This document shows, in pieces, positions 16,198 to 58,154 of a stretch of 64,000 nt of DNA. Made by a program: the position numbers and the translations under genes. This stretch comes from a virus. The stretch is taken from IMG/VR virus record IMGVR_UViG_3300028826_000074, one strand, 5' to 3'. A model generated the notes under the pieces. The model worked only from the letters and a program-made list of their open reading frames with translations. It had not been told where the DNA came from and ran no database searches. Within the stretch, counting starts at the first letter, position 1, and every line of letters begins with the position of its first letter.

Positions 16198-16546
16198 GGA
16201 CCTACCTCGCCAGCCACCCTCGCCTTTATAGCCCTGCGGATAGGGGGCAAAGGCAGTTTTGGTGGACCTTGAGGACCTAGGTGGACCTCAAGCAGGTGGG
16301 GATAACTAGCAGTTTAGGTTCAAAATAGGGTTATCGCCTCCAGCAAAAGGTGGACCTCGCGGACCTTGAGGACCTAGCTGACTCCAAACGGCTGAAAGTG
16401 ATTTTTGCGGTGAAATTTTTCCGCCGTCTCAAGGCTAACAGGTCCTCCAGGTCCACCTTTTTATGGGGGTTATAACACCTTTTGAGTTCAAAATAGGGGT
16501 TATGCACACCTTTAATAGGTCCACCCTTTTTGGAGCAAGGTCCACC
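16198..16546. repeat. Symmetric GGTGGACC/GGTCCACC repeat array (putative origin or protein-binding array)
   Basis: GGTGGACC at 16261, 16280, 16349 and its reverse complement at 16450, 16518, 16539; 17 bp direct repeat GGACCTTGAGGACCTAG at 16264 and 16361; TTCAAAATAGGG(G)TTAT at 16319 and 16487. Confidence 0.6.
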
Positions 16547-16733
16547 CAGGTTCAATTGAACCTAGAAAAGGTTAGGGAGGCTAACGATCGGGCTGGAAGG
16601 GCTTGGCAAAGTGTAGCCATGGCTACAAATCCTAAACGACCCTTCAACCATGGCTTCTGGCCCACTTTCTTCTCAGGTTCAATTGAGTCTGATCTGGGCA
16701 CCTGGTAATAGTACGGGTTTTGCGCATGGTCAC

Positions 16734-16762
16734 TTGACATGGGTTCAAAGTGCCCCGATACT
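16734..16762 (+). promoter_or_regulatory. Sigma70-type early promoter of phage A
   Basis: TTGACA(16734-39), 17 bp spacer, GATACT(16757-62), facing the early gene cluster. Confidence 0.7.
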
Positions 16763-17034
16763 GTTGGTTGTAGGCAGGACGAGGTGGACCGAGGGAGCCA
16801 CCAGCCGCAGACCGACTTACCGCGAGGCACGCACCGCAAAAGCCTCAATAGGTTCCGCAGAAGCTATCCAGCACTTGATCGAGTCACGGATAGGAAAGTG
16901 GCGAAGGCGACCCAAAAACGGGCACGTCGAGTGGCAGGGCTTGAATCCCGAACGCAGTAAGACTGAAGCTGGAGTGGCACAGAGGGCGATACGTACTCAC
17001 CTAGCACAGTCTGCTCCATATTCTACATGGAGCA

Positions 17035-17087
17035 TCCTTAACCTCGCCACAGACGGTCCACAGCCCGTGCAAAGAGGGATGGAGGAG
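17035..17087 (+). ncRNA. Twister ribozyme (type P1), copy 1
   Basis: UCCU-UAAC-CUC-GCC..G-ACGG-UCCACAGC-CCGU..AAA-GAGG-GA-UGG-AGGAG: P1 UCCU/AGGA, P2 CCUC/GAGG, P4 ACGG/CCGU, pseudoknot CCA/UGG; predicted cleavage U17039|A17040. Confidence 0.85.
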
Positions 17088-17094
17088 TATTAAC

Positions 17095-17442
17095 ATGACT
17101 ATCACACCAATCTGTTTAGACACTTGTGAAACCGTCCGACTCATGGAATGGAGGCACGAATACTGCACTCTCTCAACGCTTCATGATTTCCGCACCAAGT
17201 ATGGTGGGAAGCCCACTGATGAAACCCCAGAATTGTGGGCGATCTTTGCCGGAACCGCATTGTCCAGCAACCCTGATTTCTATCACCGAGAGAAGTCTAA
17301 ATGGGCTACTTCCATCGTCATCCACGACGGGCAGGTCATCCGGTGTCAGGGCAATCAGTACAGGGTTGAGGTGCTCAAGGGATGTGAGTCATTCCCACGG
17401 TACTGCGACCCCATTAAATTCCATCTCATTAGCCCCGCATAG
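17095..17442 (+). CDS. Early hypothetical protein
   Basis: 115 aa; its SD AGGAG is the P1 3' strand of twister 1. Confidence 0.65.
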   Translation: MTITPICLDTCETVRLMEWRHEYCTLSTLHDFRTKYGGKPTDETPELWAIFAGTALSSNPDFYHREKSKWATSIVIHDGQVIRCQGNQYRVEVLKGCESFPRYCDPIKFHLISPA

Positions 17443-17444
17443 GG

Positions 17445-17502
17445 GCTTCTTAACCTCGCCAACGCCTGTCCACAGCCAGGGTCAAAAGAGGGATGGAGGA
17501 GC
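17445..17502 (+). ncRNA. Twister ribozyme (type P1), copy 2
   Basis: P1 GCUUCU/AGGAGC, P2 CCUC/GAGG, P4 CCUG/CAGG, loop UCCACAGC with CCA/UGG pseudoknot; cleavage U17451|A17452. Confidence 0.85.
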
Positions 17503-17507
17503 ACATC

Positions 17508-17684
17508 ATGGATTCACTCGACTTTATCATGGCCTACGAGGCCGGTGAGCTTGATTTCGACGCTATTGTGGAAGGCTTCCAGGGCCTGATTGACTCTGGC
17601 CTATGCTGGAGCCTCCAGGGTCACTACGGCAGGACCGCGGTCGCTTTGATCGAGGCCGGGCATTGCGTGAGGTCAGCGGCATGA
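17508..17684 (+). CDS. Small conserved phage early protein
   Basis: MDSLDFIMAYEAGEL...LIDSGLCWSLQGHYGRTA, a motif type I recall from other phage early regions; SD from twister 2. Confidence 0.7.
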   Translation: MDSLDFIMAYEAGELDFDAIVEGFQGLIDSGLCWSLQGHYGRTAVALIEAGHCVRSAA

Positions 17685-17821
17685 GGCCACATTATTGGTT
17701 GGCTAGTTCACCGTTGGGGTGGCGTATCATGGCCCAATATGGCGATTCACCGTGGGCTTGCCTAAGGATTGTACCGTCCGAACTGGAAGCGAGATACATA
17801 ATCGCCTGTCTCATTGACTAG
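17681..17821 (+). CDS. Small early protein (46 aa)
   Basis: ATGA-coupled; stop abuts the hairpin before twister 3. Confidence 0.5.
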   Translation: MRPHYWLASSPLGWRIMAQYGDSPWACLRIVPSELEARYIIACLID

Positions 17822-17832
17822 CCCCTCCGGGG

Positions 17833-17889
17833 GCTCCTTAACCTCGCCATCGCCGGTGACAAGCCCGGGTAAAGAGGGAGTCAAGGAGC
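17833..17889 (+). ncRNA. Twister ribozyme (type P1), copy 3
   Basis: P1 GCUCCU/AGGAGC, P2 CCUC/GAGG, P4 CCGG/CCGG, loop UGACAAGC with compensated pseudoknot GAC/GUC; cleavage U17839|A17840. Confidence 0.88.
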
Positions 17890-17895
17890 ATCAAA

Positions 17896-18108
17896 ATGAG
17901 CCGTAAGGACTACATCGCTATCGCCAAGTGCATCAGAGTCAGTCTGCCCCAAAGGACAGCCGTAGGGTACGCCATGGAGAAGCCTGATTTCTACTCCAAA
18001 TTCGCCATCGCCAACGATATTGCTATTGAGCTTGCCAAACTCATGAGCCAAGATAATGAGCGATTCGACGCGGACCGCTTCCTCGTCGCTTGCGGAGTCA
18101 AGTCATGA
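17896..18108 (+). CDS. Small conserved phage early protein
   Basis: MSRKDYIAIA...FDADRFLVACG motif; SD from twister 3. Confidence 0.7.
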   Translation: MSRKDYIAIAKCIRVSLPQRTAVGYAMEKPDFYSKFAIANDIAIELAKLMSQDNERFDADRFLVACGVKS

Positions 18109-18473
18109 CCCACGCCGAGCGCGTTGTGTGGGCCGCCGCAGTCATGCAGGCGGTCGCTGAGGCCTTTGATCACATCAAGGCCAATGAGGCCGCTTGGCGC
18201 AAGAGCATGCCCGGCAAGAGGCCCGTGAAGGATCGCGAGATCCTCACCCGTGCAATCAAGGCGGTGGAGCAATCGCTAGGCGAGCACGCCGATGTGTGGC
18301 CCGGAATGGCGCGATACGACGAGGAAGTCCGAACCACCAAGATTTACCTCGCCACGATTGGCACCGCAAATTCCAACTACCTGCGCCGGGGGCTGGGTGA
18401 CCCCGAGGGACGCATCCTCCACCCTGAATCAACAGTGGCCCAACGCAAGGCCAAGGAACTCAAATATGGCTAA
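18105..18473 (+). CDS. Early hypothetical protein
   Basis: ATGA-coupled, 122 aa. Confidence 0.6.
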   Translation: MTHAERVVWAAAVMQAVAEAFDHIKANEAAWRKSMPGKRPVKDREILTRAIKAVEQSLGEHADVWPGMARYDEEVRTTKIYLATIGTANSNYLRRGLGDPEGRILHPESTVAQRKAKELKYG

Positions 18474-18717
18474 GAAACCAGAAACCCCTCACCACTTGAC
18501 CTACCACGGTAACCCAATTTGCCGCTGTGGGTTCCTCACCATCGGCATGAAGTCCGGTGGGTTCTGCGGTGGATATAGGAGCCACCACGAGGCCCTTGTT
18601 GGGGCTCGCCAAATCGCCAAGCACAACGGGTTCGACGTGAGTCGGATCGAGGTTGTGCCGGGGCCGTGCCCAGAGACTCTGGTGGACGACCCAGAGGCCT
18701 TCGAAGCCCGCGAATAG
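18466..18717 (+). CDS. Early hypothetical protein (Cys/His-containing)
   Basis: 83 aa; stop TAG lies in the hairpin preceding twister 4. Confidence 0.55.
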   Translation: MAKKPETPHHLTYHGNPICRCGFLTIGMKSGGFCGGYRSHHEALVGARQIAKHNGFDVSRIEVVPGPCPETLVDDPEAFEARE

Positions 18718-18720
18718 CGG

Positions 18721-18777
18721 GCTCCTTAACCTCGCCACCGCCGGTGACAAGCCCGGGTAAAGAGGGAGTCAAGGAGC
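18721..18777 (+). ncRNA. Twister ribozyme (type P1), copy 4
   Basis: Identical to copy 3 except one unpaired base; cleavage U18727|A18728. Confidence 0.88.
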
Positions 18778-18783
18778 ATCAAA

Positions 18784-19152
18784 ATGATTCTGTTCAACCA
18801 GCACGATTTCAACGCGTATTGCCGCAATAATGTGGGGCGCAACGGCCCGGTGAACCAGGCGTGGGCAATCTCTCGATCTGACCATAACCGGCTCGTCAGC
18901 GTGCCCCTGGAGCCCAGCAAGAGCAAAGCCAACCCTAGCGGCATCGTGCGCTTGGGTGTTGCCGGCAAGGAGTACAGCCTGTACAGCCAACTCATGGCGT
19001 ATCTGAAGTCCAACCTCCACCTGCTCGCCAAGGGCGGGGAGCGGTTCCTCGTGACGTCCTGCACGCCGCATGGCACTGTTTGGGTCTGGCTACAACCCAA
19101 CACGCTCCCTCAGCCCGTGCGGTCCCAAGACAAGGATTTTGGTGTTGGGTAA
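18784..19152 (+). CDS. Early hypothetical protein
   Basis: 122 aa; SD from twister 4. Confidence 0.65.
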   Translation: MILFNQHDFNAYCRNNVGRNGPVNQAWAISRSDHNRLVSVPLEPSKSKANPSGIVRLGVAGKEYSLYSQLMAYLKSNLHLLAKGGERFLVTSCTPHGTVWVWLQPNTLPQPVRSQDKDFGVG

Positions 19153-19378: not shown

Positions 19379-19912
19379 ATGATCGAAATCAAATCAACCA
19401 CAGGTGTAGTCCTGAAAACCATTAACGCTGATACCCTGAGCGGGGCCAGCCTGAGCGGGGCCAGCCTGAGCTGGGCCAACCTGAGCTGGGCCAACCTGAG
19501 CGGGGCCAACCTGAGCGGGGCCAACCTGAGCGGGGCCAACCTGAGCTGGGCCAACCTGAGCTGGGCCAACCTGCGCGGGGCCAACCTGCGCTGGGCCAAC
19601 CTGCGCGGGGCCAACCTGAGCGGGGCCAACCTGAGCGGGGCCAACCTGAGCGGGGCCAACCTGAGCGGGGCCATTATTAACTGGGATAGCCATACGCTGA
19701 TCGCTGAAATCCTGTTGCGTGCGGCAGGGGATGACCCTAAGCTAAGAATGGTCGCTGGGTTGATCCTAGTGTCCACTGACTGGTGCTGGGACAAACTCCT
19801 TGCCATTCGCACACCGCACCGCAAGTGGGCACTGACCGAGCTTGCAAAGTGGATTCAAGACGGGGACGACCACCCCAAGATTCTGGAGGGCTATTGTGTA
19901 TCCAAATCCTAA
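19379..19912 (+). CDS. Pentapeptide-repeat protein
   Basis: About 16 (G/W)A(N/S)L(S/R) repeats encoded by near-perfect 15 bp tandem repeats (about 19436-19670), plus a C-terminal Trp-rich domain. Confidence 0.9.
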
Positions 19913-22351: not shown

Positions 22352-22801
22352 ATGGCAAACGACCAAATTCCAATGGACGACGAGGGCGTGGCGACGTGCC
22401 TTCCGCCCGCCGGCACCTTATTTCCGTTCACCCGAAGCATCTCTGGGCATGAGGGTTCGGCACTCAACAACGCGATAACTATCGTTTCCGACGAGCGCGA
22501 CGAAAGTGGTGGGGCACACTACTACCAGGCCAGCATAGACAGCCCAGTCCATATTGCTCCAGTAGTCCAATGTATCATTAGGTTCCAAACAGGGCCACTC
22601 AAGGAGGCTGGGCTCAACGGGATATCAGATGAGGCCCTGCTCGCCATCGTTGTTGACCGGCTTGAAGGATTCAACGAGGGGCCGTACCGGTGCCGAGAAA
22701 ATTCGCTCGCTATCACTCACATTCAGGAGGCCTTACACTGGCTCCAGCATCGCACGAATTCAAGGCAAAGGCGAGGGGTGGAGGGGACCCACCAAGTTTA
22801 G
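22352..22801 (+). CDS. tad1: Tad1-like anti-defence sponge protein (Thoeris/CBASS signal sequestration)
   Basis: GGAHYY...IRFQTGPLKE...GISDEALLAIVVDRLEGFNEGPYRCRENSLAITHIQEALHWLQHRTNSRQRRGVEGT closely parallels the Tad1 sequence as I recall it ([70 protein letters not shown]). Confidence 0.75.
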   Translation: MANDQIPMDDEGVATCLPPAGTLFPFTRSISGHEGSALNNAITIVSDERDESGGAHYYQASIDSPVHIAPVVQCIIRFQTGPLKEAGLNGISDEALLAIVVDRLEGFNEGPYRCRENSLAITHIQEALHWLQHRTNSRQRRGVEGTHQV

Positions 22802-57689: not shown

Positions 57690-58154
57690 CTAGGGGAAAC
57701 TCAAAACAAAAACGCGGCACTTGCGTTGGTAACCTTTTCCAGACCAAGGCCTGGAGCCTGGGCCATGGCCGCCGTACGACTCGTAGGTTCGTCCATTCAA
57801 GATGAAGCCCACATGGCGCCCAACGCCTTTGCCTGGCTGCTGGGGAAGCACGAACATCCGCAGGATGCCGTCCTTGAGCTTCCCGGCCTCTACCGTGGAT
57901 TCCTTAAAGTGGTTTTCGATCAGCCACTCGAGCTGCTTTGCCGAGCCGTCCGGAATAACCTCGCCGCATGCCTTGCTCACGATAAGCCTCGTGTAACCAG
58001 AGCAATCGATCTCCTTCACGTCGGCGAGCTGCACTCCCAAGAAGGGGGCTTTAGCGCCGAGTAGGTACTTGCAGTCCTTCATCTTGCCAGTCAGAACTGG
58101 AATGTCCTGAGGCTCGATCGGAAGCGTTTCGTATGGTAATTCTTTGTTCGGCAT
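57690..58154 (-). CDS. Endolysin, NlpC/P60-like cysteine peptidase
   Basis: YLLGAK..IDCSGY..RHVGF..YES catalytic Cys/His pattern. Confidence 0.75.
   Translation of the reverse strand: MPNKELPYETLPIEPQDIPVLTGKMKDCKYLLGAKAPFLGVQLADVKEIDCSGYTRLIVSKACGEVIPDGSAKQLEWLIENHFKESTVEAGKLKDGILRMFVLPQQPGKGVGRHVGFILNGRTYESYGGHGPGSRPWSGKGYQRKCRVFVLSFP

What the first reader, a model, noticed from the sequence alone, without database searches (positions are those of the whole stretch)
17012..18727. A covarying hairpin abuts each ribozyme, carries the upstream stop codon and competes with P1
Seen: each twister is immediately preceded by a hairpin of different sequence. These are TGCTCCAT/ATGGAGCA (17012-17034), AGCCCC/GGGGCT (17431-17447), AGCCCC/GGGGCT (17820-17835) and AGCCCGC/GCGGGCT (18705-18723). 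In copies 2 and 4 the upstream TAG lies in or closes the loop; in copy 3 it sits at the base. In copies 2-4 the 3' arm shares GCT with the outer P1 5' strand. Inference: the hairpin could protect the 3' end of the upstream product and pull it off P1 after cleavage, freeing the SD. A terminating ribosome could melt it, coupling translation of one gene to ribozyme folding for the next.
Basis: partly seen in the sequence, partly recalled or inferred. Interest (0 to 1): 0.65.

Follow-up and report, generated by a model that had tools for sequence, protein, structure and literature searches.

The report
Known P0 hairpin of twister ribozymes
The four hairpins are real, but they are the already described optional "P0" stem that sits just before many self-cutting twister RNAs; in phages they occur mostly where a gene ends just upstream, so they most likely protect the cut end of that gene's messenger RNA rather than act as a ribosome-operated switch.

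Summary
All coordinates check out. Four type-P1 twister-like ribozymes punctuate a phage early operon, each preceded by a 6-8 bp hairpin (-10 to -14 kcal/mol; 3% operon background). This is the published P0/L0 auxiliary stem (PMC5408937, PMC11662667), function unknown. In 115 other non-redundant twisters, almost all viral, 73 carry it, ending mostly 3-5 nt before the cut. New here: P0 tracks with an upstream gene. An SD-led ORF ends within 60 nt for 51/65 P0-positive against 4/37 P0-negative twisters. That favours a terminator-like 3' cap for the upstream cleavage product. The 3-nt GCU overlap with P1 is real in copies 2-4 and weakens the modelled product/SD duplex by 4-7 kcal/mol, but is absent in copy 1 and at most marginally enriched elsewhere. 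Ribosome gating is poorly supported: stop codons have no fixed register, modelled effects are opposite between copies, copy 1 has no upstream gene, and P1 is dispensable for cleavage. 'Covarying' rests on one compensatory pair. No activity was measured. The scan noted similar hairpin-twister-SD junctions in other phages before.

The parts
16734..16762 (+). sigma-70-like promoter candidate that would drive the early operon
   Evidence: 10 of 12 consensus matches; consensus match only
17012..17034 (+). P0 hairpin 1 (8 bp, 7-nt loop), flush with P1, no overlap, no real upstream gene; would cap a ~270-nt leader
17035..17086 (+). twister-P1 copy 1; predicted cut 17039/17040; P1 4 bp; SD AGGAG 17083-17087 overlaps the P1 3' strand; C replaces the L4 A of the A-A pair
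   Evidence: (44.6 bits, E 6e-8)
17095..17442 (+). 115-aa ORF of unknown function; its last codons and TAG lie inside P0 hairpin 2
17431..17447 (+). P0 hairpin 2 (6 bp, 5-nt loop); 3' GCT 17445-17447 shared with P1
17445..17502 (+). twister-P1 copy 2 with full P1 (17445-17450 / 17497-17502); predicted cut 17451/17452; SD 17497-17501
   Evidence: (34.3 bits, E 5.5e-5)
17508..17684 (+). 58-aa DUF7417 ORF
17681..17821 (+). 46-aa putative ORF (ATGA overlap, SD-like GAGGT; uncalled, no homologue); its TAG forms the base of hairpin 3
17820..17835 (+). P0 hairpin 3 (6 bp, 4-nt loop); 3' GCT 17833-17835 shared with P1
17833..17889 (+). twister-P1 copy 3 with full P1 (17833-17838 / 17884-17889); predicted cut 17839/17840; SD 17884-17888
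   Evidence: (46.1 bits, E 2e-8)
17896..18717 (+). three overlapping ORFs (70, 122, 83 aa); the last TAG 18715-18717 lies in hairpin 4
18705..18723 (+). P0 hairpin 4 (7 bp, 5-nt loop); 3' GCT 18721-18723 shared with P1
18721..18777 (+). twister-P1 copy 4 with full P1 (18721-18726 / 18772-18777); predicted cut 18727/18728; SD 18772-18776
   Evidence: (45.9 bits, E 3e-8)
18784..19152 (+). 122-aa ORF, first gene of the last predicted mRNA piece

Best explanation
The hairpins are P0/L0 stems of type-P1 twister ribozymes and work mainly as terminator-like 3' caps. Shown in sequence: each junction reads (stop codon)-P0-twister-SD-ATG. Inferred from the twister family: the early transcript cuts itself at U^A four times, giving a leader and pieces of 1, 2, 3 and many genes. 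Inferred: each upstream piece then ends in a 6-8 bp hairpin with a 4-5 nt tail, which slows 3'-to-5' exonucleases as a terminator hairpin would. Secondary and local: in copies 2-4 the three outer P1 pairs can swap between P1 and P0 at no energy cost, so after the cut P0 zips shut, the product leaves faster and the SD in the P1 3' strand is exposed. The stop codon lies in or beside the hairpin mainly because the junction is packed to minimum length.
For: P0/L0 is published as a variable stem-loop immediately 5' of twisters. 77/119 non-redundant twisters (73/115 without this window) have a hairpin of -5 kcal/mol or better ending 1-8 nt before the cleavage U, against 14 and 9 at control positions and 16 expected from shuffles. 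P0 tracks with an SD-led gene ending within 60 nt: 51/65 versus 4/37, background 7-12%, Fisher p about 2e-11, robust over four ORF definitions. Median -11.3 kcal/mol, 18 nt, tails of 2-8 nt. 3'-terminal structure protects bacterial mRNA from exonucleases (PMC3997798). Hatchet ribozymes also carry a sequence-variable, catalytically dispensable P0 on the 5' product side in about 90% of cases (PMC4604424). The two P0/P1 registers differ by 0.3-0.5 kcal/mol and P0 weakens product rebinding by 3.7-6.7 kcal/mol. An SD placed in twister P1 is released by cleavage, 5-fold in E. coli (PMC5052635).
Against: Nothing was measured; all function is inferred. The link with an upstream gene is also predicted by the insulator and ribosome-sensor models. 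Copy 1 has P0 with no upstream gene. P0 lowers average cleavage in vitro from 0.85 to 0.40, which a passive cap does not explain. A 5-nt tail can be enough to stimulate exonucleases in E. coli (five added A residues). The comparison set came from two DNA patterns and a truncated scan, and related phages are only partly removed.
Confidence: 0.58

Rival explanations
1. P0 is mainly a folding insulator or rate tuner: it ties up the upstream coding sequence so that it cannot mis-pair with the core, or it deliberately slows cleavage so that only part of the transcripts are cut.
For: P0 lowers average fcleaved from 0.85 to 0.40 in a large screen (PMC11662667). It tracks with upstream genes. In copy 1 the 5' arm is complementary to the T1/SD strand and is neutralised by its own 3' arm (duplex -9.3). 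It sits flush or 1 nt from P1 in 40/77 cases, as for coaxial stacking.
Against: The inhibition shows no relation to P0 length, stability or linker. Flank-to-core complementarity is not position-specific in 73 other twisters: near flank -5.4, far flank -5.5 kcal/mol. P1 and its imperfections do not matter for cleavage.
Confidence: 0.17
2. One reading: a ribosome terminating on the upstream gene melts P0 and so controls folding or cleavage of the twister and the opening of the next SD, coupling successive genes.
For: Three of three gene-preceded copies have the stop in or at the base of P0. 28/57 other P0 twisters have the stop inside or within 7 nt of the hairpin. The P0 and P1 registers are isoenergetic. 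A similar layout (stop at the P0 base, overlap, SD next to P1) occurs in L075, L079 and L113. Copy 2's last codons can form a 9-bp helix with the catalytic strand (-12.8 kcal/mol, top 0.9% of operon windows).
Against: No fixed register: stops range from -51 to +22 and half are out of reach. Modelled effects are opposite: a ribosome locks the 6-bp P1 over the SD in copy 3 but strips P1 in copies 2 and 4. Copy 1 has no gene. P1 is dispensable for cleavage. The closest layouts elsewhere (L017, both copies) have SD in P1 with no overlap and the stop outside the hairpin. Overlap of 2 nt or more is not enriched (6 versus 3.6, p 0.12; total overlap p 0.05).
Confidence: 0.12
3. The main job is product release: P0 exists to strip the 5' product from P1 and free the SD, and 3' protection is incidental.
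For: Modelled product binding falls from -5.4, -9.5, -10.5 to -1.7, -4.2, -3.8 kcal/mol in copies 2-4. The SD AGGAG is in the P1 3' strand in all four copies, 6-7 nt from ATG.
Against: SD overlaps P1 in only 5 of 73 other P0 twisters and 46/77 have no overlap, so it cannot be the general reason for P0. Copy 1 has none. A 6-bp duplex should dissociate within seconds unaided (own estimate from the modelled Kd).
Confidence: 0.1
4. The hairpins are passengers copied along with the ribozyme cassette and have no function.
For: Copies 2-4 share ancestry; only one compensatory pair is seen.
Against: Copy 1 has an unrelated hairpin at the same place; unrelated phages keep a hairpin of different sequence at a tight 3-5 nt spacing far above chance.
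Confidence: 0.03

Closest known systems
P0/L0 auxiliary stem-loop of type-P1 twister ribozymes (Rfam RF03160; Roth et al. 2014 as cited in PMC5408937; McKinley et al. 2024, PMC11662667)
   Same: Variable-sequence stem-loop immediately 5' of P1, with or without a linker, on the 5' cleavage product.
   Different: About 10% of all tested twisters have it (mostly non-phage set), against 63% in my viral set and 4 of 4 here. Here it overlaps the upstream stop codon and, in three copies, three P1 pairs; the SD lies in P1. The link with upstream genes was not found in the papers I could search.
P0 hairpin of hatchet ribozymes (Li et al. 2015, PMC4604424)
   Same: Non-conserved hairpin a few nucleotides 5' of the cut, dispensable for catalysis, role not apparent.
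   Different: Different ribozyme class; present in about 90% of members.
Intrinsic terminator hairpins and other 3'-protective stem-loops (PMC3997798)
   Same: GC-rich 6-8 bp stem close after a stop codon, becoming the 3' end of an mRNA.
   Different: No U-tract; the end is made by self-cleavage (2',3'-cyclic phosphate), not by termination.
Engineered SD-masking twister switch, P1 format (Felletti et al. 2016, PMC5052635)
   Same: SD held in P1 and released by cleavage.
   Different: Natural here; engineered P1 format gave only 5-fold activation and low absolute output because the core stays folded upstream of the SD.

Membership tests
Twister ribozyme, type P1 | Stems P1, P2 and P4 with termini in P1 | tested here: met
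   P2 4 bp in all; P4 4 bp with compensatory differences between copies; P1 4-6 bp
Twister ribozyme, type P1 | Pseudoknots T1 (three Watson-Crick pairs) and T2 (GC with GC) | tested here: met
   CCA/UGG in copies 1-2 and GAC/GUC in copies 3-4, a compensatory change; GC dinucleotides present in L2 and L4
Twister ribozyme, type P1 | U-A cleavage dinucleotide with the catalytic A, and the catalytic G after P2 | tested here: met
   UAA after P1 and GA after the P2 3' strand in all four
Twister ribozyme, type P1 | trans A-A pair that completes T1 | tested here: inconclusive
   A present in copies 3-4; C in copies 1-2; effect on activity unknown
Twister ribozyme, type P1 | Covariance-model match to RF03160 | tested here: inconclusive
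   Full-length hits, E 2e-8 to 5.5e-5, but 34-46 bits, below the curation score 67.2; the alignments lose the optional P3
Twister ribozyme, type P1 | Site-specific self-cleavage | not testable with these tools
   Needs an in vitro or RNA-end assay
P0/L0 auxiliary stem of twister | Stem-loop immediately upstream of the ribozyme 5' terminus | tested here: met
   Ends 3-4 nt before the cleavage U in all four; definition
P0/L0 auxiliary stem of twister | Variable sequence, no consensus | tested here: met
   Copy 1 unrelated to copies 2-4; diverse stems and loops in 73 others
Intrinsic terminator | GC-rich hairpin | tested here: met
Intrinsic terminator | U-tract directly after the stem | tested here: not met
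   No terminator-like call at any copy; stems are followed by P1 and UAA
Ribosome-gated RNA switch (attenuator or translational-coupling type) | Two competing structures with different outputs | tested here: inconclusive
   Only three pairs compete; states within 0.5 kcal/mol; inner P1 can persist in both
Ribosome-gated RNA switch (attenuator or translational-coupling type) | Consistent position of the ribosome stop site relative to the switch | tested here: not met
   Stop ends 9, 18 and 10 nt before the cut with opposite modelled effects; -51 to +22 in other phages
Ribosome-gated RNA switch (attenuator or translational-coupling type) | Output depends on upstream translation | not testable with these tools
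   Needs reporters

The most novel reading that the evidence does not exclude
In this phage (and a few others such as L075/L079/L113) the stop codon, P0, P1 and SD form a three-way branch-migration junction that a terminating ribosome operates, so that translation of one gene sets whether the ribozyme cuts or whether the next SD opens: a natural translation-gated self-cleaving ribozyme.
Probability: 0.12. Interest if true: 0.72.

Novelty: new member of a known kind. Interest (0 to 1): 0.33.

Why it matters
The biological role of phage self-cleaving ribozymes and of their P0 stem is an open question (PMC6765202; PMC11662667). The comparative result here, that P0 appears when a gene ends just upstream and is mostly absent otherwise, gives a specific and cheap test: these ribozymes would turn a polycistronic early RNA into hairpin-capped pieces. 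This locus is a compact test bed because it holds one non-overlapping and three overlapping P0/P1 junctions, all with the SD in P1. The hairpin itself is not a new element.

Tried and rejected
No whole genome is held for the window; L001/L002 records are not held. Specific twister patterns found nothing in viral contigs. A fifth exact TAACCTCGCC at 57956 is not followed by a twister core. Eighty viral loci with DUF7417 homologues contain no twister by my descriptor, and the 115-aa and 46-aa ORFs have no relatives, so conservation in truly homologous phage loci could not be tested; the only other copies are near-identical assemblies. No RNA holder was listed; that is no evidence on expression. 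The genome-contig scan was too loose and yielded two twisters, one with P0 and an upstream gene, one with neither; a scan for the C variant of L4 yielded none. Idea that upstream codons generally pair with the catalytic strand: rejected, the signal is equal in far flanks; only copy 2 stands out. Terminator reading: rejected, no U-tract. Roth 2014 and Weinberg 2015 were not held, so P0 is cited through PMC5408937 and PMC11662667. ViennaRNA ignores pseudoknots, so all energies are for secondary structure only.

Full report
Observation. Their energies are -10.3 to -14.0 kcal/mol, while 3.1% of positions in the same operon have a hairpin that strong ending in a comparable slot. Each ends 3-4 nt before the U of a UAA that starts a full-length match to Rfam twister-P1 (17035-17086, 17447-17500, 17835-17886, 18723-18774; E 2e-8 to 5.5e-5; below the gathering score, with the optional P3 missing). 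The cores show compensatory differences in P4 and in pseudoknot T1. Copies 1 and 2 carry C where the family has the A of the trans A-A pair. The stop codons are in the loop and first 3' base (copies 2, 4) or at the base (copy 3), and GCT is shared with a 6-bp P1 in copies 2-4. Copy 1 has neither an overlap nor a called upstream gene. Covariation of the hairpin is limited to one swapped pair between copies 2/3 and 4. Independent assemblies give the same sequence.

Context. The element lies in a run of small plus-strand phage genes that begins after a promoter-like site at 16734-16762 and ends with an Acb2/Tad1-like gene. In all four copies AGGAG lies in the P1 3' strand, 6-7 nt from ATG. Cleavage would give a leader and pieces of one, two, three and many genes (inference).

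What the hairpin is. The twister consensus has optional stems P0, P3 and P5 (PMC5408937). [quoted passage not shown] Hatchet ribozymes have a like-placed, dispensable P0 in about 90% of members (PMC4604424). The hairpin here meets the definition of P0.

Comparative test. Pattern scans and a pairing-aware descriptor gave 156 twisters in 123 loci, 119 after removing near-duplicates. Seventy-seven (four from this window) have a perfect hairpin of -5 kcal/mol or better ending 1-8 nt before the cleavage U, against 14 and 9 at positions 40 and 60 nt further up and 16 expected from shuffles; spacing peaks at 3-5 nt. After further pruning of relatives, an SD-led ORF ends within 60 nt upstream of 51/65 P0-positive but 4/37 P0-negative twisters, with backgrounds of 12% and 7% (p about 2e-11; similar under three other ORF definitions). 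So P0 appears when the 5' product is an mRNA. The set is pattern-biased and phylogeny is only roughly controlled.

Competition with P1. In copies 2-4 the states 'full P0 + inner P1' and 'full P1 + trimmed P0' differ by 0.3-0.5 kcal/mol. After cleavage P0 weakens product binding to the SD strand by 3.7, 5.3 and 6.7 kcal/mol. It is not general: 46/77 junctions have no overlap and the mode is flush; overlaps of 2 nt or more are 6 against 3.6 expected (p 0.12; total overlap p 0.05); the SD overlaps P1 in only 5 of 73 others; and L017, the closest layout, has SD in P1 with no overlap. An engineered SD-in-P1 twister gave 5-fold activation with low output (PMC5052635), so SD release by cleavage is credible but modest.

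Ribosome coupling. From my own knowledge, a ribosome with the stop in its A site unwinds about 5-7 nt beyond it. Under that reach, the model locks the full P1 over the SD in copy 3 but removes most or all of P1 in copies 2 and 4. In other phages the stop lies anywhere from 51 nt before to 22 nt into the hairpin, and 28/57 are within reach. P1 is dispensable for cleavage and its imperfections are tolerated. A tuned switch should show one register and one sign; tight packing explains the scatter. Two leads remain: copy 2's last codons can form a 9-bp helix with the catalytic strand (top 0.9% of operon windows, one of four copies tested; no general signal), and L075, L079 and L113 repeat the copy-3 layout.

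Mechanism. Most likely (0.58) P0 stands in for a terminator hairpin at an end made by self-cleavage, slowing 3' exonucleases (3'-structure protection: PMC3997798), with faster product release as a local bonus in copies 2-4. Rivals: insulator or rate tuner (0.17), ribosome-gated switch (0.12), release as main job (0.10), passenger (0.03). Processing of polycistronic phage transcripts by such ribozymes has been proposed but not shown (PMC6765202). Nothing here demonstrates cleavage, stability or translation.

Verdict. Observation confirmed; interpretation partly supported; a new member of a known kind. Earlier notes of this scan describe similar hairpin-twister junctions in other phages; they agree but are not independent evidence. 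The added value is the quantified link between P0 and an upstream gene, which makes the open question of P0 function directly testable. Interest 0.33.

Noticed in passing
window 17419-17427 with 17490-17498: The last codons of the 115-aa ORF can form a 9-bp helix (-12.8 kcal/mol) with the P2'/catalytic G/T1' strand of twister 2; top 0.9% of operon windows; not seen as a general feature.
   Followed up: partly
window 17012-17036: Hairpin 1 resembles a P1 with the core removed: its 5' arm is complementary to the T1'/SD strand, and GGAGCATC at 17029-17036 equals the P1'/spacer of copies 3 and 4 (17885-17892). Possibly a remnant of an older cassette.
   Followed up: partly
window 18704-18721: Hairpin 4 matches the 3' half of the twister core at 14 of 18 positions (family D5); its freed 3' arm could pair with the core's AGCCC. 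Chance or relic of a duplication.
   Followed up: no
window 16249-16563: Non-coding gap between divergent gene blocks holds long imperfect inverted repeats (16323-16366/16440-16483) and repeated GGTGGACCT-like units; origin- or operator-like.
   Followed up: no
window 22352-22801: Acb2/Tad1-like anti-defence gene closes the operon (PF24729, 26.3 bits, cut-off 27).
   Followed up: partly
window 19379-19912: Pentapeptide-repeat gene is 177 aa here and 157 aa in L183/L188: repeat number differs between assemblies.
   Followed up: partly
window 1-32000 versus 32000-64000: Two phage-like gene sets with a GC shift from about 0.60 to 0.55 near 32 kb; one source contig ends at about window 31958, another carrier is 86.8 kb long.
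   Followed up: no
L001 (4 twisters), L002 (4), L133 (4): Other four-twister arrays between small genes; L133 copies share an extra conserved motif just downstream of P1.
   Followed up: no
L008, L009, L025, L030, L060 upstream of the twister: A family of hairpin-less twisters is preceded by a conserved ~35-nt block beginning GATGACGTAG; identity unknown.
   Followed up: no
P0-positive twisters, all loci: Stops cluster 5-10 nt before the hairpin in many cases, just at or beyond a terminating ribosome's leading edge; the 5' arm is the G-rich one in 45 of 65, the reverse of copies 2-4 here.
   Followed up: no
window 57956-57965: Exact TAACCTCGCC match without a twister core; chance.
   Followed up: yes
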